A DNA stretch of 40,092 nt from positions 1 to 40,092 of the forward strand of contig CANOGI010000001.1 in NCBI GenBank assembly GCA_947565475.1, read 5' to 3'. Positions 14,961-38,299 of this stretch are shown in pieces; position 1 is the first letter of the stretch, and every line of letters starts with the position of its first letter. The notes under the pieces are model-generated. The model was not told the DNA's origin. It saw only the letters and a program-made list of their open reading frames with translations, and searched no databases. The position numbers were made by a program, and so were the translations under genes. This stretch comes from an uncultured Eubacteriaceae bacterium. GTDB lineage: Bacteria > Bacillota > Clostridia > Lachnospirales > CAG-274.

Positions 14961-15722
14961 ATGTTAAAAAAAATTATAGCTTTAGTGGGTGCGCTTGTAA
15001 TTACTGTTGGGTCTTTTAATACGGTTTTTTGTGAGGTTGATATATCTGTTAAAGTAAACGGCGAGGATGTGGAGTTTGACCAGCCTCCCGTAATCGAAAA
15101 TGGGAGAACAATGATTCCTTTCCGAGCGGTTTTGGAGGAAATGGGGCTTTCTGTGGATTGGGATTCCGACACGAAGACAGTAATATGTACAGACGGTGAG
15201 AAAATAGCGGCTCTCACCGTGGGAAGCGATGAGATGACAGTTGGCGACGGAGGACAAGAAATATTTAAAATAAAGGGTGAGGGAGTTTGTATTAACGGGG
15301 GAAGTGTTTCTATTGACGTTCCGGCGAAAATTGTAAACGGCAGAACTTTAGTACCTATACGCATTATTGCCGAGAGTTTCGGGGCGGATGTTATATGGAA
15401 TGAGGAGAGCAGGACTGTTGAGATTAACATGAAGATGAAAGAGGAAGTCATTAACGAGAGCGAATTGGAAAAAGCCTGTGATGAGCTTATGCAGATACTT
15501 ACGGACATAGCGGAAAGCGAAGTTGTATTAGATGAGGGAATTGTGGATGAATTTCTCAGTATCACGGATGAGTTGTATGAGCTTCAAGCTCTTTGGGATG
15601 AGATGGAGTATACTCAGGAGAATGTGGATAAAGTAACGGAAATGGTAAAAGAAGTCAAATTAAGGGTTATAGACATAGCGCGGGAAGCTGATATAAATAT
15701 AAACATTGATGGGACAAAGTGA
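14961..15722 (+). CDS. secreted copper-amine-oxidase N-terminal ('stalk') domain protein with C-terminal helical module
   Basis: Signal peptide. Two stalk half-motifs (ENGRTMIPFRAVLEEMGLSVDWDSDTKTV and VNGRTLVPIRIIAESFGADVIWNEESRTV). C-terminus ...VIDIAREADININ. Confidence 0.75.
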   Translation: MLKKIIALVGALVITVGSFNTVFCEVDISVKVNGEDVEFDQPPVIENGRTMIPFRAVLEEMGLSVDWDSDTKTVICTDGEKIAALTVGSDEMTVGDGGQEIFKIKGEGVCINGGSVSIDVPAKIVNGRTLVPIRIIAESFGADVIWNEESRTVEINMKMKEEVINESELEKACDELMQILTDIAESEVVLDEGIVDEFLSITDELYELQALWDEMEYTQENVDKVTEMVKEVKLRVIDIAREADININIDGTK

Positions 15723-16031: not shown

Positions 16032-17114
16032 ATGCTAAAAAAGGTTATAGGAATAGCTTGTACGGTAATATTTACGATGGTTTCATTAAATGCCGTGTTT
16101 GGAGAAGATAAAATATCTCTTAGGGTAAATCATCAAGATGTGAGTTTTTCGGAGCAATCGCCGATAATTGAGAACGGAAAAGTGATGGCTCCTCTTAGAG
16201 ACGTCGCCGAGGCGATGGGAATTTCCATTGATATGTGCGACCGTGACGGAGAAATTGTGCTGGTTTGCATGGACAATAAGAAAGCGGTTGACATTATTGA
16301 CGGAAAAGATGAGATAACAATATGGGATATAAATAGCGACAAAAGCGATGATGATACACTTGTTTTGATAGGCGACAGCGAGAGAAGAATTCCCTTTGAG
16401 GAACCTATCAAAATTATAAATGGGGAAACTTTGGTACCTGTACGAATTTTCGCCGAGAGTTTCGGCGCCGAGGTTCTGTGGGACGAAGATAGTAAAACCG
16501 TCGGGATTTTTATGAGTGTTGACATGGAAGAATTAGAAAAAGTATTTGGCTTGATAGGAGGAATGTGGAAAAATATAGATTTAAAGATAAGCGAGTCAGA
16601 TAATTTGACAAAAGAAATGTTTAAGGAAATTTCAGATGAGTTACTAATATATGTGGAGGAAGTTGAAAATTCATACTATATCAATCAAAAAACGGTCGAC
16701 AGTGTGGCTGACGAACTGGAAAAGTATTTACAGGCGTTTGAGGATTTCGCGAAAGAGAATAGTTTAGATGTAACCGCCGGCGAGGAAGATGAAGAGTATG
16801 CCTTGAAAAAATTTAATGGGGGAAAAGTATATAACGGCGAGGTAATTGATATATCTAAGAATTTAGAGGCTTATAATCGGCTTTTAGATATAATTGAGAG
16901 GATATGTGAAAAAATTTGCGATATTGATGAAAAAGTGAGAACTGAAATTGTGAGTATTATAAGGGAAATAGGTGAGGATTTAATAAATTTAAGTAATTCT
17001 GGTAGTCCTGTAAATCAGAAAGAAGCCGACGAGATTACTGAAAAGTGTGAGGAGTATATAAGAAAGCTTACTGATTTAGCCGACAGAAATAATATATCTA
17101 TAAATTTGGATTAA
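16032..17114 (+). CDS. secreted stalk-domain protein with two C-terminal helical modules
   Basis: Signal peptide similar to the upstream paralog (MLKKVIG...). Stalk motifs ENGKVMAPLRDVAEAMGISI and INGETLVPVRIFAESFGAEVLWDEDSKTV. Module endings FAKENSLDV and LADRNNISINLD. Confidence 0.75.
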   Translation: MLKKVIGIACTVIFTMVSLNAVFGEDKISLRVNHQDVSFSEQSPIIENGKVMAPLRDVAEAMGISIDMCDRDGEIVLVCMDNKKAVDIIDGKDEITIWDINSDKSDDDTLVLIGDSERRIPFEEPIKIINGETLVPVRIFAESFGAEVLWDEDSKTVGIFMSVDMEELEKVFGLIGGMWKNIDLKISESDNLTKEMFKEISDELLIYVEEVENSYYINQKTVDSVADELEKYLQAFEDFAKENSLDVTAGEEDEEYALKKFNGGKVYNGEVIDISKNLEAYNRLLDIIERICEKICDIDEKVRTEIVSIIREIGEDLINLSNSGSPVNQKEADEITEKCEEYIRKLTDLADRNNISINLD

Positions 17115-18393: not shown

Positions 18394-18424
18394 CCTATGA
18401 GGTAAAAAGCAAAGTTTCTTGGGA

Positions 18425-18615: not shown

Positions 18616-20172
18616 CTATCTCATATTTTCAATAGTCCGCCATATGTCGTCGGTTATTTGACCTATACGCCATATTGATATTTTGTTTATTCCGAACATT
18701 TTAGCGAGACAGATTTTATCTTGTACGCTTTGAGAGTTTTCATACCATAATACCGTTTTTTGATTTTTATCGTTGGTATACACCGCTTTTGGATTTTTAT
18801 ATTTATCAGAATACTCTATAACGGTATCAGGCTGTGAGAGTCTTTTTTCCACGGTTTCCTGACTCGGGTGCTCAGAGTACTCATTTGTTACTTTTCCATT
18901 TTCGTCTAATGTCCAGCAGGATGTTGAAGCTAAACTTAGCGCCAACGAGATTTTATTTTTATCGTCAATTTGAGACGACGCCTCTTTTAACGCTGTGTAT
19001 ATTTGATTAAAAGGAGTTACGGGAGTTGTCGTAAACCCGGCGTTTCTTTCTTCCTCATTCATGGAGGACGCTCCGTAATCGTGAGCCATTATAATTACCA
19101 TATCGGAGATTTTTCCGATAGTTTTATAATCATACCCGTTAAAATATTCCCCACTCATTACAGGGTGAACCGCTGTGTAAATAAATTTTTCGGGTGGAAG
19201 ATTTTGACGGAGCTCATTTAAAAACAAGTTAAGTCCGTTTCTCAGCTCGTCTCCTTTCATTCCCTCAAAATCAATAGTGACTCCGTTGAAATCAGAGGAG
19301 GAGGAAATTATGCTCTCGACGGCCTTTTTTCTGTTTTCATCGCTCAAAAGTATTGTACGGCAGGCATTTTCGCCATTTTTTCCCTTTTGCTCCGTATTCA
19401 TAATCACCGCTAAACTTATAGGGATATTTTTTTCCTTAAAATAATTAAGCGCCTCATCAGAGCCATCGGGGATTTTCCAGTCGTTGTTATTTTCTGACGT
19501 GGTGTTTAATACAACGCCTTTTGTGTCATCATACTCAAGTCTGCCCCAGCCGAAAGAAACACAGTTTGTTTTGGCGGCTAAATCTCTCTGCGCCCAGGAG
19601 GATATGGCGTAAAAACTGTGTATAAAATCTATTTTGGAGTTATATCTCTCGTATAGCCTGTGGATTATTACCGCCGCTTCCTCTCTTGACAACGTATCGT
19701 TTGGTAAAAATGTGTTATTGCCTTTTCCGCTTATAATTCCTAAATCGTACGCCATCGTTATAAAACCTTTATCAGTGTCAGAAAAAGGGGAGTCTTTTGA
19801 GTCAATATATTTATAAAGGTCTCCGTAATTTAAGTAAGATATTATTTGGGCGACTATGTTCCCAGCCGCATCCTCTCTCGTAATATAACCGTCCGAAATA
19901 TGAGGAAAGGTCGAACTGCCGGTTACTTTGGCGAGCATAGAGCTAAACTCGGAGTATTTTACGGGTTGTCCCATACCGAATTTATCGTCTCCAATACCCT
20001 GAATAATTCCTTTCTCAGTGAGAGATTCTATATATTTTTCAGCCCAGTGTCCTTTGGGCACGTCTGAATAAGCGTATACGTCGGAAAATGTAAAGTAAAG
20101 GGCTATTAACAGACTTAAATTTAATCTTTTTATTAAATTTCTTTTTATTTTTATGGAGAATTTCTTTTTCAT
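18616..20172 (-). CDS. SLH-domain glycoside hydrolase family 18-like cell-wall protein
   Basis: Signal peptide. SLH-type repeats (YSDVPKGHWAEKYIESLTEKGIIQG; FSDTDKGFITMAYDLGIISGKGNNTFLPNDTLSREEAAVII). GH18-type catalytic strand FNGVTIDFEGM. AAGGAG RBS 11 nt upstream. Confidence 0.75.
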   Translation of the reverse strand: MKKKFSIKIKRNLIKRLNLSLLIALYFTFSDVYAYSDVPKGHWAEKYIESLTEKGIIQGIGDDKFGMGQPVKYSEFSSMLAKVTGSSTFPHISDGYITREDAAGNIVAQIISYLNYGDLYKYIDSKDSPFSDTDKGFITMAYDLGIISGKGNNTFLPNDTLSREEAAVIIHRLYERYNSKIDFIHSFYAISSWAQRDLAAKTNCVSFGWGRLEYDDTKGVVLNTTSENNNDWKIPDGSDEALNYFKEKNIPISLAVIMNTEQKGKNGENACRTILLSDENRKKAVESIISSSSDFNGVTIDFEGMKGDELRNGLNLFLNELRQNLPPEKFIYTAVHPVMSGEYFNGYDYKTIGKISDMVIIMAHDYGASSMNEEERNAGFTTTPVTPFNQIYTALKEASSQIDDKNKISLALSLASTSCWTLDENGKVTNEYSEHPSQETVEKRLSQPDTVIEYSDKYKNPKAVYTNDKNQKTVLWYENSQSVQDKICLAKMFGINKISIWRIGQITDDIWRTIENMR

Positions 20173-20252: not shown

Positions 20253-20605
20253 CAATAAATGTATCGATAAGTGGTAAAATATAGTTTTATAAGTGATTTG
20301 CCTAAAAATATATTTATAAATATTATATTTTTAAGCTTTTATATTATAGTTTCTTTTAATTTTTATATAGTATAACATATAATTTTACTAAATTCAACAA
20401 TTATTTTTTTAAAATATTTTTTCAAAGTTATTTTTCTAAAGCGACTTATGTGAAACGTGAAACTCACCGAGGGGTTTATTATAACAGAGACTCAAGATTT
20501 TAACGGCGTTAAGTTAAATTCGCCGTTTTGATTGGGCGGTCTGTTGAGTCGGCTAATGGCGGTATTTTGACATTTGCCGGTGCTTGTCGGCGATTTTTTG
20601 CGTTT

Positions 20606-20804
20606 AACCGACAGAGGAAGTCACCTGCTTATTAAGCGGGGGAACTTACTCTTGTATTAAAAGGAGTGCAAGCCAGGTTGCAAGGGCAAGCAGTAAAATG
20701 AAGTTTTGCGACCAGCCCCACACTGAATACAAAGGCGAATACTTTCGCCGTCGGTTACGAGAATTTTTGCTATTTTGTTATATGAAAATTCGAGTAGTCT
20801 TGAC
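20606..20804 (+). repeat. R-A family copy inside the rpoB leader (199 bp, enlarged hairpin-3 loop)
   Basis: AACCGACAGAGGAAGTCACCTGC...GCGGGGGAACTTAC...CTTGTATTAAAAGGAGTGCAAGCC[~45 nt extra]CTGAATACAAAGGCGAATACTTTCGCCGTCGGTTACGAGAATTTTTG...AAAATTCGAGTAGTCTTGAC. Hairpin 2 carries mismatches compared with other copies. Confidence 0.8.
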
Positions 20805-20871
20805 CGCTTTGTTTTCTCACGGAAGAAATTTCCGTAATTTATATACTATTATTTTAAGGAGTGAAGGCGCC

Positions 20872-23800
20872 ATGGAGAAAAACAGAATACGCCCCGTCAA
20901 GCTTGGCGACGTGGTTCGTATGAGTTATTCGAGGATAGACGAAGTTTTGGAGATGCCTAATCTGCTCGCTTTGCAGAAGGACAGCTATAAGTGGTTCTTG
21001 GAGGAAGGCCTCAAGGAGGTTTTTGAGGATATTTCCCCTATATGTGATTACAGCGGAAATCTTGTTCTTGAATTCACGGATTTTACTTTTGATTCCGAAC
21101 CTAAATATGACATTCCCGAATGTAAAGAACGTGACGCGACTTACGCGGCGCCTTTTAAAGTAAAAGCGCGCCTTAGAAACAAGGAAATCGACGAGATTAA
21201 AGAACAGGAAATTTTTATGGGGGATTTTCCTCTGATGACGGATACTGGAACTTTTGTTATTAACGGCGCCGAGCGTGTTATTGTAAGTCAGCTTGTTCGT
21301 TCTCCCGGTATTTATTACGCTATTGAGAAAGACAAAGTCGGCAAAAATCTTTTAAGCTCCACCGTTATCCCGAACAGAGGCGCTTGGATTGAGTATGAGA
21401 CAGACTCTAACGATGTGTTTTACGTAAGAGTCGATAGAACGAGAAAGGTTCCTGTTACGGTTTTAATACGCTCCTTGGGAATCGGAACCGATGAAGAAAT
21501 TCTTGAGCTTTTCGGAAATGAGCCAAAAATGTCGGCGACTATTGAAAAGGACACGACAAAAACAAAAGAAGAAGGACTCATCGAGATTTATAAGAAAATA
21601 AGACCAGGGGAACCTCCTACTGTCGATAGTTCTGAAACCTTACTTAATAATATGTTTTACGACCCTAAAAGATACGATTTAGCTAAAGTGGGACGATATA
21701 AATTTAACAAAAAGCTCGCTTTTAGAAACCGTGTCAGAGGCTATAAACTTGCCGAAAACGTGGTGGATCCGTCGACAGGAGAGGTCATTGCCGAGAAAGA
21801 TACGAAAATTACCGCGGAGATAGCGGATTCTATCCAAAATACGGGTGTACCTTATATTTGGGTTGTCGTAGGGGAAGTGAACGAGGAGAGAAACGTCAAG
21901 GTTTTGTCAAATCTTACAGTTTCTATAGACGAGTATATAAAGCCTTACGGTCTTACCGCGAAAGAGCTTAAAATTAAAGAAAAAGTTTATTATCCGGCTC
22001 TTATGGAGATAATTTCATCAAGCGACGGCAAAGAGGAAATTAAGGCCTCTATTTTAAATAATATTACAAAGCTTATTCCAAAACATATTACCCTTGAGGA
22101 TATTATGGCGTCGATAAACTATGTTATGCATCTCGACTACGGTATCGGAAACAAAGATGACATCGACCATCTAGGAAACAGACGTATTAGAGCCGTTGGC
22201 GAGCTTTTGCAAAATCAGTTCAGGATAGGTCTCTCAAGAATGGAAAGAGTTGTACGTGAGAGAATGACTATTCAGGATATGGACGCTATCACTCCTCAGG
22301 CTTTAATAAATATTAAACCTGTTACAGCCGCTATTAAAGAGTTTTTCGGAAGTTCTCAGCTTTCACAGTTTATGGACCAGAACAACCCTTTAAGTGAGAT
22401 GACCCATAAACGCCGTCTGTCAGCTTTGGGCCCCGGAGGTCTCTCAAGAGAGAGGGCCGGTTTTGAGGTTCGTGACGTTCACTCTTCCCATTATGGAAGA
22501 ATGTGCCCCATAGAGACGCCGGAGGGACCTAACATCGGTCTTATTAACTCTTTGGCTACTTTCGCCAGAATAAATGAGTATGGCTTTATTGAGGCTCCTT
22601 ATCGCATTATTGACAAGACGGGGGATATTCCAAGAGTTACTGACGATTTTATTTACGTTACCGCCGACGAGGAGGAAGCGTATGTCGTAGCTCAAGCTAA
22701 TGAACCCCTTAATGAGAATGGCGAGTTTATAAACGCCAAGGTTACGGCGAGACTTGGTGAGGAAAACGTAGAGATGGACGCCAATAAAATAGACCTTATG
22801 GACGTTTCACCTAAACAGCTTGTATCGGTGGCCACAGCTCTTATTCCTTTCCTTGAGAACGACGACGTTACCCGTGCCCTTATGGGTTCCAATATGCAGC
22901 GTCAGGCGGTTCCTCTTTTGACGACGGAGGCTCCCGTGGTAGGTACAGGTATGGAACATAAAACCGCCAAAGACTCTGGTGTTGTTATTGTGGCTAAACA
23001 TTCAGGAGTTGTCGAGAAGGTTGACGCTTCAGAGATAGTTGTTTTATGTCAGAATGGTTCTAAAGACCGTTATAAGATGACTAAGTTTAAAAGAAGCAAT
23101 CAATCTAACTGTATGAATCAGAGACCGATTGTTTTTAAAGGCGACAAGGTAAAGGAAGGTCAGATTATTGCCGACGGTCCATCAACAAGAGACGGTGAGC
23201 TTGCGCTCGGTAAAAATCCTCTTATCGGGTTTATGACGTGGGAAGGCTATAATTATGAGGACGCTGTTTTGCTCAGCGAGAAACTTGTGGCCGACGACGT
23301 TTACACTTCCGTTCATATTGAGGAATATGAGGCGGAGGCGAGAGACACTAAACTCGGACAAGAGGAAATCACGAAGGATATTCCAAACGTCGGCGAGGAC
23401 GCTTTAAGAGACCTTGACGAAGAGGGTATCATAAGAGTTGGCGCTGAAGTTCAGCCAAATGATATTTTAGTCGGAAAAGTAACTCCTAAGGGAGAAACAG
23501 AGCTTACAGCGGAAGAGCGTCTTTTGCGCGCGATTTTCGGTGAGAAAGCGAGAGAGGTCAGAGATACTTCTCTGCGTGTTCCTCATGGTGAGAGCGGAAT
23601 TATTGTGGACATTAAGAAGTTTACGAGAGAAAATAACGACGAGCTCCCTCCTGGGGTTAATCAGCTTGTACGCGTTTATATAGCTCAGAAAAGAAAAATT
23701 TCTGTAGGAGATAAAATGGCGGGACGTCACGGTAACAAAGGTGTTGTTTCCCGTGTGCTTCCTGTTGAGGATATGCCGTTTTTACCTAACGGACGACCTC

Positions 23801-28388: not shown

Positions 28389-28422
28389 TTGATTTTATAA
28401 ATTTTATATAAATGACCTGCTT

Positions 28423-28570
28423 AACCGACAAGAGGAAGTCCCCCGCTTAAAAAGCTGGGGACTTCCTCTTGTATTAAGTAGGAGTGCAAGCTCCAAATTA
28501 ATATAAGGGCGAATGATTTCGTTGTTGGTTACGAGAATTTTTGTTATACAAAAATTCTCGTAGTTTTGAC
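28423..28570 (+). repeat. R-A family, canonical 148-nt copy
   Basis: It starts 35 nt after the rpoC stop. All four hairpins are intact, including a perfect hairpin 4, TACGAGAATTTTTG-TTATA-CAAAAATTCTCGTA. Tail TAGTTTTGAC. Confidence 0.85.
28431..28476 (+). terminator. rho-independent terminator for rpoC (hairpin 2 of R-A)
   Basis: AGAGGAAGTCCCC(C)GC-TTAAAAA-GC(T)GGGGACTTCCTCT forms a stem of about 15 bp, followed by the T-rich TGTATT. It also faces the convergent minus-strand gene ending at 28592. Confidence 0.65.
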
Positions 28571-28591
28571 TGAGGTGATTAGTATTAGCTA

Positions 28592-29317
28592 TTAATTTTT
28601 TAATTCTATTCCGTTTTTAGAGGCAAAATTTTTTAATTTTTCAATATATATTTTATATTGATTTTGTATTTCGGCGAGTTTATCGGTATCTGTTAAGTTT
28701 CCATAATTTTTTACTGTTCTCTCAAAGGCGTTAATTTGGTTTAATAAAGTTATAAATTCTTCAGCGGAAGATTTATTCAGAGATGAACGATTTTCAGTTA
28801 TCTGGTTTATTATTGATTTTAATTCGCTAGCAGTGTAAGCCTTTTTTCCTGTTGAGCGGATTATATCTTTTTGACTTGTTTCGTTTGTATTTATTTCCGC
28901 TGTGTATGTGTCAGGATTCCATTTAACCTCGGCGTTAAACGCCTGTGAAACCGCTCTTAAAGGTATTAATGTACGATTATTTATTATTTTTGGTTCTACA
29001 TCAAGAATTACTTTTTTTGAATTTACCGACATTTCTTTTGAACCGATTTTCATAATAACAGTTATGTTTTTTTTGCGACATATTATAGTTCTGTTTTTTT
29101 CATTCCACTCAACAGAGGCGCCGAGCTCTTCTAGTATAGCCCGAAAAGGTACGAGGGTTGTACCTTTTTCGATTATAGGTTTTTGGTCGAAGTGTAAAAA
29201 TTTGTTGTTTAATTTAATTTTTATATCGGGCGATGCTGTTATGGAGAAAGGTGAGAGGAAAGTCAAGCAAATCAATGTTATAAAGCCACGCTTAAATAAT
29301 TTTTTTATAGATGACAT
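28592..29317 (-). CDS. secreted stalk-domain protein with C-terminal helical module
   Basis: Signal peptide. Stalk motifs EKGTTLVPFRAILEELGASVEWNEKNRTI and INNRTLIPLRAVSQAFNAEVKWNPDTYTA. C-terminus YKIYIEKLKNFASKNGIELKN. Confidence 0.75.
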   Translation of the reverse strand: MSSIKKLFKRGFITLICLTFLSPFSITASPDIKIKLNNKFLHFDQKPIIEKGTTLVPFRAILEELGASVEWNEKNRTIICRKKNITVIMKIGSKEMSVNSKKVILDVEPKIINNRTLIPLRAVSQAFNAEVKWNPDTYTAEINTNETSQKDIIRSTGKKAYTASELKSIINQITENRSSLNKSSAEEFITLLNQINAFERTVKNYGNLTDTDKLAEIQNQYKIYIEKLKNFASKNGIELKN

Positions 29318-29379: not shown

Positions 29380-29742
29380 TTATGGCGTATCGTTTAAGCC
29401 CACGTCATAGTTGAGAGTAATGCTGTTTTCCTCAGCTATATTCTCAATTTTCTCAATATAAATATCATATTGTTCAGTAATTTTATTTATTTTTTCCTGA
29501 GAGTCAAACTCTTTGGGATTGGAATTTATATTTTTTACATATTCTTTTATTTCTTTGACGAGAGAAACATATTCTTCTTTTGAGTCTAAGGAAAGGCTGT
29601 CCGCCTGAGAACTGATTGAGTCAATGACGGATACAAGTGTAGCGGCGGTTTTTTCATTATCTAACATATTATTAGACTGGCAACCTGCCAACAGAGTAAT
29701 TGAAAGGGGGACTGTAATTAAGGCACGCGAAATTTTTCTCAT
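29380..29742 (-). CDS. small lipoprotein consisting of the helical module only
   Basis: Lipobox LLAGC. C-terminal YDIYIEKIENIAEENSITLNY matches the module ending of neighbouring paralogs. Confidence 0.7.
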   Translation of the reverse strand: MRKISRALITVPLSITLLAGCQSNNMLDNEKTAATLVSVIDSISSQADSLSLDSKEEYVSLVKEIKEYVKNINSNPKEFDSQEKINKITEQYDIYIEKIENIAEENSITLNYDVGLNDTP

Positions 29743-29998
29743 TTTTGAACAAGCTCCTTATATATATAAGCTAACGACGTATATTTTATGCCAAAAATTT
29801 ATTTGTTTAAATTTTAAGCTTGGGATTATGGAAAAAAGTATTAAACAATATTATATTTTTATTTTATCCACTAAAAAAGTGATAATACAAGCCTTTTATT
29901 TATAAATTAAAAAATAAATTTATAAACAAAATTTAAAAGCTTTATATTATCACCTTTTTATGTAATTTACGATTCTTAATAATTATTTATTAAGAAAA

Positions 29999-30331
29999 TT
30001 ATTTAATTTCGATATTGTTTTTCTTAGCGATGTCTTTTAATTTAGTGTCAAGTTCCTCGATTTTAGCGAGAGCCTCGTCTAAATCAGCGTCATCTCCTGC
30101 TGAAGCGATAGACATAAGTTCAGTAGCCTCAGTCTGAAGAGCTTTCATATCTTCCTGAAGTTTAGCCTGAGCGTCAGCGTCTAATTTTGTAGCTTCCTGA
30201 GCTATAGTTGTAGCGGAAGTCATAAATTTCTGAGCCGCAGCCTGTACGTCTTCCTCAGTAGCTCCGCCACAGCCTGTAAATAAAGAAAGTGATAAAATAG
30301 AAACACCTAAAATTGATAAAAACTTTTTCAT
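29999..30331 (-). CDS. small Ala/Glu/Lys-rich lipoprotein with the helical module
   Basis: MKKFLSILGVSILSLSLFTGC lipobox. C-terminus KLKDIAKKNNIEIK. AAGGAG sits 9 nt upstream of ATG 30331; the ATG at 30349 in the ORF track would overlap this RBS. Confidence 0.7.
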   Translation of the reverse strand: MKKFLSILGVSILSLSLFTGCGGATEEDVQAAAQKFMTSATTIAQEATKLDADAQAKLQEDMKALQTEATELMSIASAGDDADLDEALAKIEELDTKLKDIAKKNNIEIK

Positions 30332-30394
30332 TGTAATAATCTCCTTCAATAAAAAATTAAAATGTTAATAAACTGTAAATTTTATTATAAAAAA

Positions 30395-30423
30395 ATTATA
30401 CCACACAAAATTTAATTTGTAAA
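30395..30423 (-). promoter_or_regulatory. candidate sigma-A promoter for the 29999-30331 lipoprotein gene
   Basis: The minus strand reads TTTACA (30423-30418), 17-bp spacer, TGG-TATAAT (-10 at 30400-30395, extended -10). About 60 nt upstream of the start codon. Confidence 0.55.
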
Positions 30424-30594
30424 TAAAAATTTTAATTTAATTTGGAATAATTTTTTATACTTTAGTTTATAATAATATGTATATAAAAAAGTGAAACACA
30501 AATAATTATAAACTATACATTTCATTATAACATATAAAATATTATTTGTAAATACGTTTTTTAATTATTTACATGAGCTTTTTTTTATGGGAAT

Positions 30595-31560
30595 TTATAA
30601 ACTATTTAAGTTTGAGAGAGTCTGGCTCATATTCTGTACGGCGTCAAGAAGTTCTTTTTCAGAGGTTATTGGTTTTACCGTGATATGATTCTTTTTAGCG
30701 AAAGAATTAAGTTTAACGGCATATTCCCCTAACTTAGACGGATTTGTCATATTATTTGTTATATCAACGGTAAATTCTTGACAAATTGTTTTAAATTCTG
30801 TTTGAGAAGATTTGTCCAAAGATGTTATGTTATTTATTATCGCTATAAAAGGAGCGTAAAAATCGTAATACGCCTGCATTAACTCAGAGTCTTCCGCCAT
30901 ATCTGAGGTATTTTCCATATCATCAACGGAATCCATTAAATCATTTAAAGATGATATAGGTTTTACTGTTATATTATTAGCTTTCGCCACGGCGTTAAGT
31001 TTAACAGCGTATTCATTCAATTTATCCGTGTTTGCCAAGATTTTGCCGAAATCGGATAAAATTTCTTTGTAAAGACTTATGACCTCTGGCATAGAGGCTT
31101 CTTTTATAACATCGGCGTTATCTGACACGGCTATACACGGCGCGAAAAAGTCAAGATATGCTCGTTCCCATTTTTGATAGTCGAAATTTTCGTAGTCAAA
31201 GTTTTTTATAGTGTCGGTTAAGAGAGCGTCAATATCAAGATTTTCAATATCTTCTAATAAACCATCCAAATCTTTTTTCAGAGCGGAGCTATTAGTAGAA
31301 GAATTTGAGTTTGAAGTGGGATTTGAAACTGAGGAAGAATCTAAACCCGAAAGTTTGGAAGCGGGATTTGAAACTGAGGAAGAATCTAAACCCGAAAGTT
31401 TGGAAGCGTTATAAGAATTAGCGCTTTCGGAGTCTTTTACGGAAGATTCAAAAGAAGACTCCGTGGTTGTTTGTTCAGTAGTCTCATCTGAGTCCCCACA
31501 GCCTGAAAGCAAAGCGAGGGATAAAAGAGAAACTCCCAAAATCGATAAAAATTTTTTCAT
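30595..31560 (-). CDS. lipoprotein with Ser-rich linker and two tandem helical modules
   Basis: MKKFLSILGVSLLSLALLSGC lipobox, nearly the same signal peptide as the 29999 gene. Two modules end LNAVAKANNITVKP and LNSFAKKNHITVKP. GGAGG RBS. Confidence 0.75.
   Translation of the reverse strand: MKKFLSILGVSLLSLALLSGCGDSDETTEQTTTESSFESSVKDSESANSYNASKLSGLDSSSVSNPASKLSGLDSSSVSNPTSNSNSSTNSSALKKDLDGLLEDIENLDIDALLTDTIKNFDYENFDYQKWERAYLDFFAPCIAVSDNADVIKEASMPEVISLYKEILSDFGKILANTDKLNEYAVKLNAVAKANNITVKPISSLNDLMDSVDDMENTSDMAEDSELMQAYYDFYAPFIAIINNITSLDKSSQTEFKTICQEFTVDITNNMTNPSKLGEYAVKLNSFAKKNHITVKPITSEKELLDAVQNMSQTLSNLNSL
31318..31407. repeat. perfect 45-bp tandem duplication inside the lipoprotein gene
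   Basis: GGGATTTGAAACTGAGGAAGAATCTAAACCCGAAAGTTTGGAAGC occurs at 31318-31362 and again at 31363-31407. In-frame, it encodes ASKLSGLDSSSVSNP twice on the minus strand. Confidence 0.9.
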
Positions 31561-31716
31561 TGTTAAAACCTCCTTAATTTTATTTTAAAACTGTTTGAGA
31601 TTTTTCAAACAATTTTTTTATGTACTGAAGTGCCGAGAGGAAAATTGTAATCAAATTTTAAGAGCACGTAAAGCGCGCGAACGGGAAGCTAAAAGAACAG
31701 CTTTCCGCATAATTGA

Positions 31717-32811
31717 TTATTTTTGTTTTTCAAATGGTATTTTTACCTCTATTATTCCGGAAGAATAGGGCGCTATCTCATATTGATTAAAGAAAAACAC
31801 AAGCCCGTCTTTGGAAACGTAGAAATTATCAGGCGATAAATCCTCAACGAGTTTTTCCGAGTCATCGTAAAAATTATCAGGATTTTCCTTTATCTCTTTT
31901 TTGAAAAGTTCTTTTACATCTTTTAAAATCGCCTCGGAATCTTTTCCGCAAAGTTCTTTAGCTACCTCGTCTAAAGTTACGGCGCCTGTCTCTATGTTAT
32001 ATGTTTTGGCTGATTTAAGCGTAGAGGGATGAGCTCCTCCCGTATATGACGTTTCAGTGCTTATTATTGAGAGATAGTTATCAAATTCGTCGGCGTCATA
32101 AGTGAGCGTAAACTCATAGGGGTGGAAGTTTTCTGTATTTTCGATGAATATGTCTTTTGCCTCTTTTTTTAAATTGTCAAGGGACATATCCATATCATCT
32201 GCTTTTTTATTTAAAAATTTCTCAGCCTGAGAGTTTCTTTTCTCCTCGAAAAGTGAATACGCTTTTTCACTTAATTTTTCTTTTAATAACTCTGAGTTTG
32301 TATATATTTTTGCCGTTATGAGGACGGTATCGCCGTCTGTTATATTACATGTTTCTGTGGCGATAGGATTCACGGTGTTAATTATTATTGTTTTAGTATT
32401 GGCATCGTAATTTATGACCGCACCTAACGCCTCGTTTATGACTTGGAGGGGAACAAGAGCTTTTCCATCTGTTATTTTCGCGGGAAACTCAATATGAATC
32501 TTTTTGCCGTTTACGTCGATTTCAGAAGCCCCGATTGTCACGCTTATGGTTTTATCATCCTTTGTACATATTATTGTTTTTGTGCTTTCATCCCATAAGA
32601 TTGACGCTCTTATTTCTTCCATAAAATTTCTGAAAGGTATAAAGGGGATTCCGTCTTCTATCGTAAAGGGCTGTTCAAGGTTGATTTCTTTATTATCAAG
32701 CGTTATGGTGAATGTTTTATTTTCTGTTATGGCAAGTATCGGAGATACTGAGCAATACTGCAAAACAGCGCTTAATAATATCGACGTTATTATTTTTAAT
32801 TTTCTTTTCAT
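31717..32811 (-). CDS. secreted stalk-domain protein fused to a DUF4163/DUF3298 (RsiV/PdaC-like) domain
   Basis: Stalk motifs EDGIPFIPFRNFMEEIRASILWDESTKTI and TDGKALVPLQVINEALGAVINYDANTKTI. The C-terminal half has SYTGGAHP and FNQYEIAPYSSGIIEVKIPF, typical of DUF3298. Confidence 0.75.
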   Translation of the reverse strand: MKRKLKIITSILLSAVLQYCSVSPILAITENKTFTITLDNKEINLEQPFTIEDGIPFIPFRNFMEEIRASILWDESTKTIICTKDDKTISVTIGASEIDVNGKKIHIEFPAKITDGKALVPLQVINEALGAVINYDANTKTIIINTVNPIATETCNITDGDTVLITAKIYTNSELLKEKLSEKAYSLFEEKRNSQAEKFLNKKADDMDMSLDNLKKEAKDIFIENTENFHPYEFTLTYDADEFDNYLSIISTETSYTGGAHPSTLKSAKTYNIETGAVTLDEVAKELCGKDSEAILKDVKELFKKEIKENPDNFYDDSEKLVEDLSPDNFYVSKDGLVFFFNQYEIAPYSSGIIEVKIPFEKQK

Positions 32812-32846
32812 TTTTAATTCTCCTTGTATGATAAGTTATTTATTTT

Positions 32847-32995
32847 AACCGACAGAGGAAGTCCCCCGCTTTTTAGGCGGGGGTACTTCTTCTTGTATTC
32901 AGGAAGAGTGCAAGCTCACTTTGAATACAAAGGCGAATATTTTTGCCGTCGGTTACGAGAATTTTTGTTATACAAAAATTCGAGTAGTATTGACT
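32847..32995 (+). repeat. R-A family, canonical 149-nt copy
   Basis: AACCGACAGAGGAAGTCCCCCGC-TTTTTA-GGCGGGGGTACTTC...CTTGTATTCAGG...TTGAATACAAAGGCGAATATTTTTGCCGTCGGTTACGAGAATTTTTGTTATACAAAAATTCGAGTAGTATTGAC. It lies between two minus-strand genes. Confidence 0.85.
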
Positions 32996-33108
32996 TGTAT
33001 GGAGTAAGTATAAGCTGATAGTAAATATAAATGTTATAATAATCTGTTGAAAGAATTTCGTGAAACAAAAATATAAATAGTTTTTGTTTAGATAAAAGCG
33101 GATTAATG

Positions 33109-34617
33109 TTAATCTTCTATTTTAATTTTATTTTTTTCCGCTAAAACTTTAAGTTCTTCAATATATTTTTTTAACTTCTTTTCCGCTGTGTCAATTTTTT
33201 CCTGTGTGTTCAGACGCTGACTGTTTGATAAAAGACCTTTTACATATTCTAATATCTCACTCATAAATTGGGTATGTTCTGAGGATTCGGGCAGACCTTT
33301 TTTAATTCGCATATAAATATTTGAAAGTTCTCTCTCCGCCGATATAAAACCGATTATGTCAAGGTCTTGCTGTTTTTCTTTAGCGGCGGATGTTCTCTTT
33401 AGATCCTCTATATAAATTTTCATTTCATTTGTAATTTCGTCAATTTCATTTTGAGACGAAAAACAGTTAAACATACTGTTTATAAATTTTAAGGAAATTT
33501 CATATGGTACAGCCATAGTCTCAGGGTTTTCCGAGTGGTCTTTGAGAAGTTCTTTTAATGTTTTGGTATATTCCGAATAGTCAAATTTAGTCATATTGTG
33601 TTCGGACATAAAGGTTTTAATTTTTTCAATAATTTTATTGAGTTTTATTTCTATTTCCTTAGTTTTCCCAATATCTTCGCTGTCATAGGAGGTTATATAA
33701 CCGTCCGCCAAAAATGATAATATATCGAGATAAATTTCTTTAGCCTCTTGATATGTTTCTGTATTTAAAGAGCCGGAAAGTTGAGAAACAAGCGGAATTA
33801 ACTCAATAACAGTTTCATTTTCAATAAATGAAAGAAAGCTTGTTATAAAGCATATACTGTTTTCAGCGCTTGTCTCAGAGTAAATAAGTCTGTCGTTTCT
33901 TTTAAACAAATCTGTTATTTTTTCGGCGTATTCTTTTTTTATATTCTGCTTTTTCTCAATTATTTGAGGGTCTCCGTTTTTAGAATTTTCAGTCAAATAA
34001 ACATAGTCCTTTGAGGTATAAAAATTAAATATAATTTCTTTCGCCTCTTCAATGGAGTTATCGTCAAAATCTTTTAGATTGGCTATTAACATAAAAGTAA
34101 TGTTTGACATCGTATTATCAGAAATATAACGATTTGTGTTAAAATCATATATGTCATCTGATGTGTTATGATTTATGAACTCGATAAGATTTTCAACATC
34201 TTTAATGTAGTGAACGACGGAGGAGTTAATAATTTTTGACACTGTAAAGTCGGATATGTAAGCCGTGGAGTTTATTACTTTCGAGGGAGACACGGATTCT
34301 TCGTAAATTTGATTGTTTACCGTAAAAGAGTCGGAGCCTATTGTAATGGAAAAATTTATTTTACCATTTGAGCCGTGTATTGTTTTTTTTGAGCTGTCGT
34401 AAATTATTTTATAGCCTATATTCTCAAAAAAAGTCCGAGCGGGCAAATAAGTCTCAAGACCGGTGTCGTCAAAAAATACAGGTTTATCAAGTTTAACGAT
34501 ATTTCCGTTTACCATTATTATAGTATTAGGATCAAAGTCCCCGAAAGTATAAACGGGAGCGGTAAAAGATAACGCGGTTACCGCTGTTAAAAATAAAGAA
34601 GCGAGCCTTTTTTTCAT
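33109..34617 (-). CDS. secreted protein with divergent stalk-like N-terminal domain and long helical region ending in the module
   Basis: Signal peptide. Divergent stalk pattern MVNGNIVKLDKPVFFDDTGLETYLPARTFFENIGYKIIYDSSKKTI. C-terminus YIEELKVLAEKNKIKIED. Weak RBS. Confidence 0.65.
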   Translation of the reverse strand: MKKRLASLFLTAVTALSFTAPVYTFGDFDPNTIIMVNGNIVKLDKPVFFDDTGLETYLPARTFFENIGYKIIYDSSKKTIHGSNGKINFSITIGSDSFTVNNQIYEESVSPSKVINSTAYISDFTVSKIINSSVVHYIKDVENLIEFINHNTSDDIYDFNTNRYISDNTMSNITFMLIANLKDFDDNSIEEAKEIIFNFYTSKDYVYLTENSKNGDPQIIEKKQNIKKEYAEKITDLFKRNDRLIYSETSAENSICFITSFLSFIENETVIELIPLVSQLSGSLNTETYQEAKEIYLDILSFLADGYITSYDSEDIGKTKEIEIKLNKIIEKIKTFMSEHNMTKFDYSEYTKTLKELLKDHSENPETMAVPYEISLKFINSMFNCFSSQNEIDEITNEMKIYIEDLKRTSAAKEKQQDLDIIGFISAERELSNIYMRIKKGLPESSEHTQFMSEILEYVKGLLSNSQRLNTQEKIDTAEKKLKKYIEELKVLAEKNKIKIED

Positions 34618-34893: not shown

Positions 34894-36351
34894 TTATATA
34901 ACTTTCAGTTGTAACTTTGCCGCGAGAAATTTCCACTCATCGTGAAGCTGAGTTATATTTTTTACGCAGTTAGCTATTTGAGCGTCCGTCATTTTCGTTA
35001 TTGTATCGAAAGCGGCTGAAAATTCAGGGTTGTCAGAATTGAGTTTAAACAGTTTTGAGTATGTGTCGAGAGTTTTTATATAAAGAGAGTTGTACTTTGC
35101 CTGATAATCAGAATACTTTTGCTTTAAGGTTTTTCCGTTCTCATCGGCGTCAAGGTCGGACGCTTTTTTTATAAAATTTTTTAAATATACTGTGAGGTCG
35201 AGATCCGCCTTTATAAGAGGTTTTATATCTGTTTTGCTCGATTTCTTAGTGGTTTTTCCACTTATTCCGAGGTTAATGTAAATTGTTTTCACATCCTCAA
35301 GTATTTCTTTTACCTCCTCTTCAGCGTCGAGAATATCATCTTTGCCGGGGATTAATTTATCCGGGTCGTCGGAGAGATACTCATTTTTGAATTTCTCAAT
35401 TCTCTTTATGTGTTTGTTATAAGGTTTTTCAGCAAAAGCGTATTTTTCTTTAAAAATATAGGGCTTATCGGCGCCGTCATCTATAGAGCGAACTGTATAG
35501 TTCTCAATATATTTTTCGTAAAGGTCTATGTCCGACATATAATCGGCGTAATCGGGAATACTACAGCCCACTTTATCGGCGAAGTTTTTAATCTCGTCTA
35601 TTAAAACATCTACGGAATCTTCAGAGAGATTTAATATTTTTTTCGCTTTTTTCATCTCGCATGAGTTTATATTGCTGTAATCTATATTTATTTTTCCAAA
35701 AGGCGAGTCTTTGCCGTTGAAAATGTCAGAAAAATACTCAAACTCTTTGGCGTAGGACTCGTATTCGGGTTTTAAAATTTTAGCCAGGGTCATATATGAG
35801 CCTTTATCAAGACATATTCCGTCGTTTAAAGCGTAGATATACAGTGAGAGTTTTGTGAGTTTTGACGATAAGACGGCGTCCTCGGAATTTACAGGAGAGT
35901 ATATGAACACTGTCTGAAGCTCACTATCCCAAAACACTTCTGAATTTAAGGCTTTTGACAGCGCTCTTAAAGGGATATATGTCGTACCGTCTATAAGAAC
36001 GGGTGGAACGTCTAAAAACACGTCGGCGTCCTCAGAAAACCGCATTATATTGCTGTTTATTACAAAAGTGAGGTATATATCGTCTTTTGAGCAAACTATT
36101 GTTTTTGTTTTTGGATTCCAATCTAAGGCGATATTCATCGCGTCAGCTATTTCTCTTAAAGGCACAAGAGTAACTCCGTCTTTAATTACAGGGTCTTTTG
36201 ATAAGTTTAAAATATTGTCGTCAAGTTCCACGATAATTTTATTGCTTGTCACCGAGTAAGAAACGGCGAAAGTTTTAAACGTTTCTGTCGATGAGAAAAT
36301 TAAAGCGGATAAAATGATAAAAGATAAAAATTTTATAAAATATTTTCTCAT
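34894..36351 (-). CDS. secreted stalk-domain protein with long helical C-terminal region
   Basis: Signal peptide. Stalk motifs KDGVTLVPLREIADAMNIALDWNPKTKTI and IDGTTYIPLRALSKALNSEVFWDSELQTV. Degenerate module ending FLAAKLQLKVI. AAGGTGA RBS. Confidence 0.72.
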   Translation of the reverse strand: MRKYFIKFLSFIILSALIFSSTETFKTFAVSYSVTSNKIIVELDDNILNLSKDPVIKDGVTLVPLREIADAMNIALDWNPKTKTIVCSKDDIYLTFVINSNIMRFSEDADVFLDVPPVLIDGTTYIPLRALSKALNSEVFWDSELQTVFIYSPVNSEDAVLSSKLTKLSLYIYALNDGICLDKGSYMTLAKILKPEYESYAKEFEYFSDIFNGKDSPFGKINIDYSNINSCEMKKAKKILNLSEDSVDVLIDEIKNFADKVGCSIPDYADYMSDIDLYEKYIENYTVRSIDDGADKPYIFKEKYAFAEKPYNKHIKRIEKFKNEYLSDDPDKLIPGKDDILDAEEEVKEILEDVKTIYINLGISGKTTKKSSKTDIKPLIKADLDLTVYLKNFIKKASDLDADENGKTLKQKYSDYQAKYNSLYIKTLDTYSKLFKLNSDNPEFSAAFDTITKMTDAQIANCVKNITQLHDEWKFLAAKLQLKVI

Positions 36352-37875: not shown

Positions 37876-38239
37876 GCGTATCTGAAAACTCTCCCTAACT
37901 GTTAAAAGTATATAAAACTTTATTTTTTTAAGATTATTTTTATTTTCTCAAAACTAAAATATACAAAAAATTATAAAAATAAACGAGATTTGACTGGCGT
38001 TTATTTTTTATTATTTCTCATACTAATCTTATAAGAGCTGTTAAGTAACAATATCTTTGCTAATTGTTATCATCTAAGTTATTTAGATGATATATTTAAA
38101 AAGTGGATATAATATATTAGGACGGTATAAAAACAAGGCGAATACTTTCACCGTCGGTTACAAGAATTTTTGCTATACAAAAATTCGAGTAGTTTTGATA
38201 AGAGATTAGTATTATGTATATTTTAGTTTTCAGGTACGC
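37876..38239. repeat. R-H family copy (364 bp) containing an R-A 3' fragment
   Basis: Terminal inverted repeats GCGTATCTGAAAACT (37876-37890) / AGTTTTCAGGTACGC (38225-38239). The interior is inverted relative to 34659-34872. It starts 35 nt upstream of the proS start codon. Confidence 0.6.
38124..38198 (+). repeat. R-A family, 3' half only
   Basis: ...ACAAGGCGAATACTTTCACCGTCGGTTACAAGAATTTTTGCTATACAAAAATTCGAGTAGTTTTGA. Hairpins 1-3 are absent. Confidence 0.7.
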
Positions 38240-38299
38240 TGTAGTTATATTTTAACACAGTCGAGAATTATATTCAACAATTTAAAAATAAAAAATGCT

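What the first reader, a model, noticed from the sequence alone, without database searches (positions are those of the whole stretch)
29380..31560. Recurrent C-terminal helical module ending A-x-[KER]-N-x-[IL]-x-[IVL], shared by lipoproteins and stalk proteins
A ~50-70-aa predicted helical segment ends in a strikingly similar short motif in eight proteins, and occurs twice in two of them:
- DIAREADININ (14961 gene)
- FAKENSLDV and LADRNNISINL (16032 gene)
- FASKNGIELK (28592)
- IAEENSITLN (29380)
- IAKKNNIEIK (29999)
- VAKANNITVKP and FAKKNHITVKP (30595)
- LAEKNKIKIE (33109)
- a degenerate LAAKLQLKVI (34894)

It is usually preceded by Y-x-x-Y-I-E-[EK]-[IL]. Three genes (29380, 29999, 30595) are lipoproteins made of little else, so the module is an independent unit rather than part of the stalk domain. 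I cannot assign it to any named domain. It may be an uncharacterised interaction or oligomerisation module of the cell surface.
Basis: seen in the sequence. Interest (0 to 1): 0.7.

Follow-up and report, generated by a model that had tools for sequence, protein, structure and literature searches.

The report
Unnamed three-helix module on envelope proteins
A small, previously unnamed three-helix-bundle protein domain recurs at the far end of lipoproteins and secreted "stalk" proteins in an uncultured gut Clostridia lineage; it is real but rare, and its striking end motif looks like a structural helix cap, not a binding site.

Summary
A 71-85-residue module is present in at least 10 supported copies in genes 14961, 16032 (2), 28592, 29380, 29999, 30595 (2) and 33109 (C-terminal copy plus one or two decayed internal copies). 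Profiles built without a copy and its orthologues still score it at 24-72 bits; composition-preserving shuffles reach at most about 11 bits. The copy claimed in 34894 is not supported.

AlphaFold2 predicts an autonomous three-helix bundle (pLDDT above 90 in the core). In 28592 a disordered linker separates it from the stalk domain.

The motif A-x-x-N-[NG]-I-x-[ILV] is the most conserved part. It lies where helix 3 stops, so I read it as a C-cap plus a short hydrophobic tail. The other conserved positions are core residues, N-caps and likely salt bridges, so no shared ligand site is evident.

No Pfam, NCBIfam, PDB-sequence or Foldseek match was found. An HMMER search of 1.84 billion representatives gave about 30 genuine clusters, those traced to genomes being uncultured gut Clostridia MAGs. 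The genes are under purifying selection but evolve faster than housekeeping genes.

Most likely this is a surface-displayed binding head held by a lipid anchor or a stalk domain; the function is inferred only. It is a new but ordinary lineage-specific domain family.

The parts
29380..29742 (-). Lipoprotein gene (120 aa). Signal peptide with lipobox LLAGC (Cys21), then a single module.
   Evidence: (G20 and C21 invariant).
29407..29673 (-). Module of 29380 (aa 24-112). Helices are H1 24-44, H2 52-74 and H3 82-105. The cap and tail N106-S-I-T-L110 follow.
   Evidence: AF2 model, mean pLDDT 82.4, 90-98 over aa 31-110. 71.9 bits against a profile that excludes itself and its orthologues.
29999..30331 (-). 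Lipoprotein gene. The true start is probably the ATG at 30331 (110 aa, MKKFLSILGV..., lipobox LFTGC), not the TTG at 30349.
   Evidence: GGAG ribosome-binding site about 9 nt upstream of the ATG. The database orthologue P0003 is 110 aa.
30002..30214 (-). Module of 29999, ending ...DIAKKNNIEIK at the stop codon.
   Evidence: 44.5 bits in the leave-out test.
30595..31560 (-). Lipoprotein gene (321 aa). Lipobox LLSGC, an S/T/N/D-rich low-complexity linker of about 100 aa, then two modules.
30961..31137 (-). Module a of 30595 (aa 142-200). This is the short variant without the long H2-H3 loop, ending AKANNITVKPIS.
   Evidence: 30.2 bits.
30673..30849 (-). Module b of 30595 (aa 238-296), ending AKKNHITVKPIT. 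A further 25 residues follow that are probably helical.
   Evidence: 33.8 bits. The extra helix was not modelled.
28598..28831 (-). Module of stalk protein 28592 (aa 163-240). Helices are 163-175, 182-203 and 211-234, with the tail SKNGIELK.
   Evidence: AF2. 50.0 bits. The stalk domain at aa 33-143 matches PF07833 at E 4.9e-37.
33115..33327 (-). C-terminal module of stalk protein 33109 (aa 431-501), ending LAEKNKIKIED.
   Evidence: hhalign 98.5%. 57.7 bits.
33376..33576 (-). Internal decayed module of 33109 (aa 348-414). It keeps SSQNEIDEITNEMKIYIEDLKR but has lost the end motif.
   Evidence: hmmsearch E 8e-6. hhalign 82%. 23.9 bits against a shuffle maximum of 9.9.
33580..33774 (-). Probable further internal module of 33109 (aa 282-346), ending ...KIKTFMSEHNMTKFD.
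   Evidence: hhalign probability 85%, E 6e-6. hmmsearch gives only a weak signal.
15498..15704 (+). Module of stalk protein 14961 (aa 180-248), ending DIAREADININ. It is very acidic (net charge -16).
   Evidence: 26.6 bits against a shuffle maximum of 11.4. Charge.
16566..16775 (+). Module a of stalk protein 16032 (aa 179-248), ending FAKENSLDVT.
   Evidence: 36.4 bits.
16893..17105 (+). Module b of stalk protein 16032 (aa 288-358), ending LADRNNISINLD.
   Evidence: 53.0 bits.
34894..36351 (-). Stalk protein with a helical C-terminal region. It lies in the same conserved cluster but is not a detectable carrier of the module.
31717..32811 (-). Stalk protein of the same cluster. In the position where its paralogues carry the module, it carries PdaC plus DUF3298 (RsiV-like) domains.
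   Evidence: Pfam hits PF07833, PF13739 and PF11738. No module hit.

Best explanation
The module is an autonomous extracellular three-helix-bundle domain of about 75-85 residues. It belongs to a lineage-specific family that has not been described.

It always sits at the distal, C-terminal end of exported proteins. Two alternative tethers hold it at the envelope: an N-terminal lipid anchor plus a short or low-complexity linker (29380, 29999, 30595), or an N-terminal copper-amine-oxidase-type stalk domain plus a disordered linker (14961, 16032, 28592, 33109).

The conserved ending A-x-x-N-[NG]-I-x-[ILV] is the stop signal of helix 3. Asn or Gly takes the left-handed capping position. The Ile and the following [ILV] form a short hydrophobic tail that packs back on the bundle.

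The other conserved positions are a/d core residues, Ser/Thr/Asp N-caps, and probably two inter-helix salt bridges. The conserved sequence therefore specifies the fold, while the exposed helix faces differ between paralogues.

I commit to the module being a surface-displayed protein-binding head whose specificity lies in those variable faces. The fold, the domain independence and the export are shown or strongly predicted. The capping role and the binding function are inferred.
For: Homology:
- Leave-out profile scores are far above composition-preserving shuffles.
- About 30 genuine family clusters were found in 1.84 billion representatives, with E down to 1e-36.

Fold:
- The AF2 model of 29380 has helices 24-44, 52-74 and 82-105. 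pLDDT is 90-98 across them and 97 for residues 101-110, which include the tail.
- The same three helices appear in 28592 after a linker with pLDDT below 50.

Motif as a cap:
- DSSP ends helix 3 at residue 105, and N106 is the first non-helical residue.
- A103, N106 and I108 are the least variable columns. Position 107 is N, G, S or D. Position 110 is I, L or V in 47 of 51 sequences.

Structural role of the other conserved residues:
- Hydrophobic columns 85, 88, 92, 95, 99 and 102 follow an a/d spacing.
- E57 with K98 and E64 with K91 both sum to 155, as expected for residues facing each other in antiparallel helices H2 and H3.

Export: there are signal peptides or lipoboxes on all carriers.

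Head position:
- The module is always C-terminal.
- The paralogue 31717 has a ligand-binding-type PdaC/DUF3298 domain pair in the same place.

Real genes with fast-evolving products:
- dN/dS against the closest MAG is 0.00-0.24, compared with 0.009-0.037 for rpoC and proS.
- Against L006, identity is 37-72% for cluster proteins and 91-95% for ProS and RpoC.
Against: - No ligand, partner or localisation has been observed, so the function is pure inference.
- All conserved positions can be explained by fold stability. The module could therefore be an inert structural element.
- AF2 coordinates could not be inspected. The packing of the tail and the salt bridges are deduced from pLDDT, DSSP and residue spacing only.
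- The alignments behind the models are shallow (16 and 8 sequences).
- The stalk domain's role as an anchor is not established. The one characterised bacterial example I found (Paenibacillus lautus SOD, PMC10432803) uses its stalk-family domain for homodimerisation.
Confidence: 0.45

Rival explanations
1. The module is a docking or oligomerisation unit. Modules on membrane-anchored lipoproteins pair with modules on secreted stalk proteins, or modules self-associate, and this holds the stalk proteins at the cell surface in a helical equivalent of cohesin-dockerin pairing.
For: - Lipoprotein-type and stalk-type carriers sit together in a gene cluster between proS and rpoC. The cluster is syntenic in four other MAG contigs, with the same set of paralogues.
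- Module net charge falls into classes that are kept among orthologues at only 46-65% identity. The modules of 28592 and the C-terminal module of 33109 are mostly basic (-1 to +6). Those of 29380 and 29999 are acidic (-5 to -11).
- Apart from the stalk domain, whose role is unknown, no wall or membrane anchor was seen in the stalk proteins.
Against: - The stalk proteins 14961 and 16032 and their orthologues have strongly acidic modules, so there is no simple rule of basic stalk modules and acidic lipoprotein modules.
- No conserved surface patch remains once the structural positions are accounted for.
- AF2 folds the monomer confidently on its own.
- No multimer prediction could be run.
Confidence: 0.2
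2. The module is a passive structural element: a rigid helical spacer or rod that has no partner of its own.
For: - It occurs in tandem arrays of two to four copies (16032, 30595, 33109; P0010 and P0033 in other MAGs).
- Its conserved residues are all of the fold-determining kind.
Against: - It is terminal. In most carriers nothing lies beyond it that would need spacing.
- The lipoproteins 29380 and 29999 consist of nothing else, so the module must be their functional part.
- Each paralogue is kept as a distinct orthologous line under purifying selection.
Confidence: 0.15
3. The similarity is not homology. It is only shared coiled-coil or low-complexity composition plus a chance short motif.
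For: - The PDB sequence-profile hits are de novo designed helical bundles.
- The large database search returned four repeat-protein false or doubtful positives: P0011, P0032, P0034 and P0036.
Against: - Shuffles of identical composition reach at most about 12 bits, while real copies score 24-72 bits.
- The motif occurs about 18 times more often than expected.
- Gapless register is conserved through three helices and both loops in 56 copies.
Confidence: 0.03
4. The module is a divergent member of a known three-helix or helix-extended-helix family, such as FIVAR, the GA module, protein A domains, Fap1 NR-alpha, or the Rho_N / E3-binding 'LAKxxGI' type.
For: - There are pattern resemblances I recalled from memory: an 'sQE.vD' start of helix 3, as in FIVAR, and 'AKKNHITVKPITSEKELLDAV', which looks like helix-extended-helix motifs.
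- The best Foldseek hit is the adhesin fragment Fap1 NR-alpha, 3rgu.
Against: - None of these Pfam families is hit by any of 42 members, even at E up to 10.
- The Foldseek hit to 3rgu has E 2.9, probability 0.13 and TM 0.33-0.42, and nothing has E below 1.
- The helices are 21-24 residues long, which from memory is longer than in those families.
- Most copies end 1-10 residues after the motif, so there is no second helix for a helix-extended-helix fold.
Confidence: 0.07

Closest known systems
Three-helix-bundle binding modules of Gram-positive surface proteins (protein A domains, GA module, SCIN/Efb-type, Fap1 NR-alpha)
   Same: - A small autonomous three-helix bundle.
- Exported and tethered to the envelope.
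- Often present in tandem.
- Fast-evolving surfaces.
- Fap1 NR-alpha (3rgu) and SCIN (2win) appear among the weak Foldseek hits.
   Different: - There is no detectable sequence or significant structural similarity.
- The helices are longer, at 21-24 residues.
- The tether is a lipid anchor or a stalk domain, not LPXTG.
- No ligand is known.
FIVAR domain (PF07554)
   Same: - Roughly similar size and a helical repeat found in varied extracellular architectures.
- A similar-looking pattern, from memory, of an S-x-x-x-F/L helix and then '[ST]Q-E-x-[IV]-D' opening the last helix.
   Different: - The Pfam model is not matched by any of 42 copies at E up to 10.
- No FIVAR structure appears among the Foldseek hits.
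- FIVAR lacks the A-x-x-N-[NG]-I-x-[ILV] ending.
Helix-extended-helix motifs of the 'LAKxxGI' type (Rho_N, E3-binding/PSBD, SAP/LEM)
   Same: The ending [FI]-A-x-K-N-[GN]-I-x-[IV] looks like the first helix plus the extended segment of these motifs. In 30595 and some relatives (P0021, P0025) a further helical stretch follows (KPITSxxELLDAV).
   Different: - In most copies the protein stops right after the extended segment.
- There are no Pfam hits.
- These are extracellular proteins.
- The resemblance is probably a shared helix-capping solution and not shared ancestry.
Copper amine oxidase N-terminal 'stalk' domain proteins of Firmicutes (PF07833)
   Same: Four window carriers of the module, and 13 of 30 database relatives, have this domain at the N-terminus. 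The AF2 model superposes on domain D1 of E. coli amine oxidase (E 1.5e-5, rmsd 1.2 A).
   Different: The module is a separate domain behind a disordered linker, and it also occurs without any stalk domain.

Membership tests
The module family itself (unnamed; profile defined here) | A significant match to a family profile built without the tested copy and its orthologues. | tested here: met
   24-72 bits for 10 window copies against a shuffle maximum of about 11. The segment in 34894 fails.
The module family itself (unnamed; profile defined here) | A three-helix bundle that ends in a cap and tail A-x-x-N-[NG]-I-x-[ILV]. | tested here: met
   AF2 models of 29380 and 28592 and column statistics. 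The internal copies of 33109 have lost the ending.
FIVAR (PF07554) | A match to the Pfam model at or near its gathering score. | tested here: not met
   Absent from the hits of 42 members scanned at E up to 10 and from full-length scans.
Protein A B-domain / GA module | A Pfam model match, or significant structural superposition on solved domains. | tested here: not met
   No Pfam hit. No Foldseek PDB hit with E below 1.
Fap1 NR-alpha-like adhesin helical bundle | Significant structural similarity to 3rgu. | tested here: not met
   Top Foldseek hit, but with E 2.9, probability 0.13, TM 0.33/0.42 and rmsd 8 A.
Helix-extended-helix (Rho_N / E3_binding / SAP) | A second helix after the extended segment, and a Pfam model match. 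| tested here: not met
   Most copies end 1-10 residues after the motif. No Pfam hit. The 30595-type extension was not modelled.
Bacterial lipoproteins (carriers 29380, 29999, 30595) | An N-terminal hydrophobic segment ending in a lipobox L-x-[GA]-C. | tested here: met
   LLAGC, LFTGC and LLSGC. G and C are invariant in 16 relatives. No dedicated predictor such as SignalP was available.
Cu_amine_oxidN1 stalk-domain proteins (carriers 14961, 16032, 28592, 33109) | PF07833 above its gathering score of 24.2 bits. | tested here: met
   128, 70, 127 and 44.5 bits. Structural match to the 1oac/1spu D1 domain.
Coiled coil / low-complexity artefact | The similarity disappears when composition is controlled for. 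| tested here: not met
   Composition-preserving shuffles score far below the real copies.

The most novel reading that the evidence does not exclude
The modules form a lineage-specific recognition system on the surface of an uncultured gut Clostridia clade. One possibility is a helical docking code, in which acidic lipoprotein-borne modules capture basic stalk-protein-borne modules to assemble a surface layer. The other is a family of diversifying three-helix-bundle adhesins that bind host molecules such as immunoglobulin or mucin, analogous to protein A and GA modules but of independent origin.
Probability: 0.15. Interest if true: 0.6.

Novelty: new member of a known kind. Interest (0 to 1): 0.28.

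Why it matters
It defines a domain family that is in neither Pfam nor NCBIfam. This gives a structural annotation (an exported, tethered three-helix bundle) to a block of otherwise hypothetical envelope proteins in an uncultured gut Clostridia lineage.

It also shows that the conspicuous motif is a fold-capping signature and not a functional site, which should redirect any follow-up to the variable helix faces.

The family is very rare: about 30 clusters among 1.84 billion representatives. Small helical surface modules are also a familiar theme. The general impact is therefore modest unless a partner or host ligand is found.

Tried and rejected
1. FIVAR, GA or protein A relationship. This was suggested by the 'sQE.vD' pattern. 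It was rejected because there is no Pfam hit in 42 members at E up to 10 and no Foldseek hit.
2. Helix-extended-helix (Rho_N / PSBD) reading of 'AKKNHITVKPITSEKELLDAV'. There are no Pfam hits and most copies end right after the motif. I kept it only as a resemblance.
3. DUF1351. There is a weak hit (E 2.7e-4, 21 bits, below the cut-off of 27.8) for one member, and only 2 of 42 members match. I treat this as noise.
4. PG_binding_1. The repeat protein P0032 matched the profile only by summing units of about 6 bits, and no module hits that Pfam family. I treat this as a false positive.
5. The idea that the C-terminal I-x-V tail adds a strand to the stalk domain's sheet. In the AF2 model of 28592 the tail is coil, the two domains are joined by a disordered linker, and pTM is 0.47. 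Not supported.
6. A copy in 34894. This includes a second look at 'IDEIKNFADKVGCSIPDY' at about aa 251-268, which scores 3.1 bits, within the shuffle range. Rejected.
7. The word-indexed protein search. It returned only 6-7 close relatives, carried no source names, and was of little use for distribution.
8. Literature searches on stalk-domain proteins. They gave only the Paenibacillus SOD paper (PMC10432803), in which a stalk-family domain mediates dimerisation.
9. A structure alignment that included orthologues taken from fetched loci.
Full report
WHAT IS THERE

The window is from a low-GC Firmicute (33-45% GC).
- Six carry an N-terminal copper-amine-oxidase-type stalk domain, PF07833: genes 14961, 16032, 28592, 31717, 33109 and 34894 (E 1.5e-37 to 1.7e-11).
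- Three are lipoproteins with lipoboxes LLAGC, LFTGC and LLSGC: genes 29380, 29999 and 30595.

IS IT MORE THAN CHANCE

Yes.
- The regex A..N.[ILV].[ILV] occurs 9 times in 2,398 residues of these proteins and once in 8,561 residues of the other window proteins. Shuffles of the same proteins give a mean of 0.5 hits and a maximum of 4.
- The motif is the end of a module of about 71 profile positions that aligns through three helices and two loops.
- HMMs built from window copies with one gene left out score 9 of the 10 claimed segments above all 500 composition-preserving shuffles.
- After the family was enlarged from databases, profiles that leave out each copy and its orthologues score the window copies at 24-72 bits. 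The shuffle maximum is about 11 bits.

The exception is 34894, which is not a detectable member.
- It scores 3.6 bits, and 32 of 500 shuffles do as well.
- hmmsearch finds no hit.
- hhalign against an alignment of its orthologues gives probability 0.5%.
- A helix-3 sub-profile gives nothing above noise.

Besides the C-terminal one (hhalign 98.5%), there are internal copies at about aa 282-346 (85%) and aa 365-410 (82%), and perhaps one at aa 179-243 (6%). The internal copies have partly or wholly lost the end motif.

FOLD

AlphaFold2 on 29380, using a 16-sequence family alignment, gives a three-helix bundle.
- The helices are 24-44, 52-74 and 82-105.
- Mean pLDDT is 82.4 and pTM is 0.71. Per-block pLDDT is 90-98 across the bundle and 97 for residues 101-110. 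Only the signal peptide and the last five residues score low.

The model of 28592 shows four parts.
- The beta-rich stalk domain, residues 33-143.
- A segment with pLDDT below 50, residues 147-158.
- The same three helices, at 163-175, 182-203 and 211-234.
- A coil tail with pLDDT of about 90.

The overall pTM is 0.47, which means two domains on a flexible tether. The stalk part superposes on domain D1 of E. coli amine oxidase (E 1.5e-5, rmsd 1.2 A).

WHAT THE MOTIF IS

Column statistics over 56 family copies show that A103, N106 and I108 (29380 numbering) are the least variable positions of the whole domain.
- Position 107 is N, G, S or D.
- Position 110 is I, L or V in 47 of 51 sequences.
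- DSSP ends helix 3 at residue 105.

Asn or Gly right after the last helical turn, followed by a hydrophobic residue that folds back on that turn, is the classical Schellman/alpha-L type of helix C-cap. This is established knowledge of helix capping, applied here by inference. The alternating I-x-[ILV] pattern then makes a short ordered tail.

The remaining conserved positions also look structural.
- The hydrophobic columns of helix 3 (85, 88, 92, 95, 99, 102) follow an a/d spacing.
- S54-x-x-E57 and [STD]81-Q-E open helices 2 and 3 like N-caps.
- E57 with K98 and E64 with K91 each sum to 155, as expected for residues facing each other in antiparallel helices. I infer salt bridges from this; I could not inspect coordinates.

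Nothing conserved is left over that would mark a common ligand site.

IS IT A KNOWN DOMAIN

I found no evidence that it is.
- Pfam and NCBIfam scans of the full proteins give only the stalk domain, or sub-threshold noise.
- Scanning 42 module copies one by one against Pfam at E up to 10 gives no family shared by more than 5 copies, and none above its cut-off. FIVAR, GA, Rho_N and E3_binding are all absent.
- Profile searches of PDB sequences return de novo designed helical bundles, which is generic helical similarity.
- Foldseek against the PDB gives nothing with E below 1. The top hit is Fap1 NR-alpha (3rgu) at E 2.9 and probability 0.13.
- Foldseek against BFVD gives nothing either.
- HHpred against Pfam was not available.

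DISTRIBUTION

A full HMMER scan of 1.84 billion cluster representatives with the 9-copy profile found 35 proteins at E up to 1e-3. Four are repeat proteins that score by summing weak units: P0011, P0032, P0034 and P0036. The other roughly 30 fall into three architectures.
- Lipoproteins of 100-300 aa with one or two modules.
- Stalk proteins with one to four modules. PF07833 is present in 13 of 30.
- One membrane protein with module plus YARHG (P0030).

None has an SLH domain, and none carries a source name.

In GTDB species representatives, a degenerate-pattern scan found four MAGs.
- Two labelled 'uncultured Clostridia' (isolates MGBC114079 and MGG03684).
- One labelled 'uncultured Lachnospiraceae'.
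- One labelled 'uncultured Clostridiales' (isolate MGYG-HGUT-04547).

That these are gut bacteria I infer from the isolate names (the MGBC, MGG and MGYG-HGUT catalogue prefixes).

The block from 34894 to 28592 lies between proS and rpoC in the window. The same order of paralogues is found in L004, L005 and L006, and mostly in L001. The pair 14961/16032 is syntenic with three stalk-plus-module genes in L010.

SELECTION

Against the closest MAG (L004), the cluster genes have dN/dS of 0.00-0.24. The values for rpoC and proS are 0.009 and 0.037. Against L006 the cluster proteins are 37-72% identical, while ProS and RpoC are 91% and 95%. These are real, maintained genes that evolve several-fold faster than housekeeping genes, as envelope proteins often do.

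HOW IT MOST LIKELY WORKS

Shown or strongly predicted:
- The proteins are exported.
- The module is a separate three-helix bundle on a flexible tether.
- The module is always the distal, C-terminal element.
- The lipoproteins 29380 and 29999 contain nothing else.

Inferred:
- The module is the working 'head'. The lipid anchor or the stalk domain is the 'handle'.
- The paralogue 31717 supports this. It has the same handle but carries PdaC/DUF3298 in the head position. That domain pair is the one found in RsiV (RsiV similarity at E 6e-6 in NCBIfam). From background knowledge, RsiV binds lysozyme.

Because only fold-determining positions are conserved and the exposed faces differ, I favour a binding head with paralogue-specific targets (confidence about 0.45 for the whole statement; about 0.9 for the fold and its independence).

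The main rival is module-module docking between lipoproteins and stalk proteins (0.2).
- In its favour are the conserved co-clustering and the charge classes that are kept among orthologues. The modules of 28592 and the C-terminal module of 33109 are mostly basic (-1 to +6). Those of 29380 and 29999 are acidic (-5 to -11).
- Against it, the stalk proteins 14961 and 16032 are strongly acidic, and no multimer prediction could be run.

A passive spacer (0.15) fits the tandem arrays but not the terminal position or the module-only lipoproteins.

VERDICT

The claims that the module is an independent unit and has no named domain hold. The idea that it is an interaction or oligomerisation module stays open.

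This is an undescribed but structurally ordinary, very narrowly distributed domain family: a new member of the familiar class of small helical modules on Gram-positive envelope proteins. Interest is modest at 0.28. It would rise if a partner or host ligand were found.

Noticed in passing
window 12612-12900 (+), 14430-14577 (+), 18424-18496 (-), 20596-20815 (+), 28420-28600 (+), 32843-33023 (+), 38040-38240 (+): A dispersed intergenic repeat of about 150-210 nt, with at least 7 full or partial copies in 40 kb (72-85% alike where aligned). Full copies have four hairpins; the copy at 38040 lacks the first. RNA folding of the copy at 32850-33000 gives -66.7 kcal/mol, z = -8.6. Seven base pairs show compensatory changes among 5 copies. 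There is no Rfam family at gathering score. It was not found in the related MAG loci, including L004, whose RpoC is 99% identical. Copies lie just after the stops of 28592 and 33109, upstream of 14961, and in the rpoB leader. It could be a REP/MITE-like element or a structured RNA.
   Followed up: partly
window 20698-20872: The listed rpoB ORF start (ATG 20698) reads through a copy of the intergenic repeat. The real start is probably the ATG at 20873 ([13 protein letters not shown]...).
   Followed up: partly
window 30395-30566 (- strand): Two near-consensus sigma-70-like promoters (TTTACA, 17 nt, TATAAT, each with an upstream TG) lie 129 bp apart upstream of 29999. They sit inside a 43-nt direct repeat (79% identity). 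This suggests strong vegetative expression of this lipoprotein.
   Followed up: no
window 31310-31399: A 45-nt tandem duplication (96% identity) in the low-complexity linker of lipoprotein 30595. It encodes about 15 residues twice (SKLSGLDSSSVSNP[AT]).
   Followed up: no
window 31496-31595 vs 30267-30366: The signal-peptide coding regions and ribosome-binding sites of 30595 and 29999 are 77% identical at the DNA level over 100 nt. That is much more than the rest of the two genes, which suggests a shared recent origin or gene conversion of the 5' ends.
   Followed up: no
window 31717-32811 (-): A stalk-domain protein with PdaC (PF13739) and DUF3298 (PF11738) domains, i.e. an RsiV-like ligand-binding pair. 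It is conserved in the same position of the cluster in related MAGs.
   Followed up: partly
P0011 (database protein, 1242 aa): A eukaryote-looking repeat protein with seven units of about 172 aa separated by P/G/S-rich linkers. It matches the module profile at E 4.7e-17, but only by summing units of 6-16 bits (e.g. LDEATVDGFLEELKEYKRKAIIIAKKYYDEGIEM). I treated it as a doubtful or false positive. Whether it is a true remote relative is unresolved.
   Followed up: partly
L010 5823-6032 (+): A short ORF just upstream of a stalk-plus-module gene repeats the helix-3 end of that gene's module (…EILKEYLTRLKDLAKENGIDAE). It is probably a duplicated gene fragment.
   Followed up: no
window 18616-20172 (-): An SLH plus GH18 protein lies between proC and rpoB, and it is syntenic in L010. 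It is the only SLH protein seen here, and it does not carry the module.
   Followed up: no
window 8938-10122 (+), aa 369-376: The only regex hit outside the module genes (…ERKAHENDVFLNG, near the C-terminus of a 394-aa protein). There is no profile match, so it is probably chance.
   Followed up: partly
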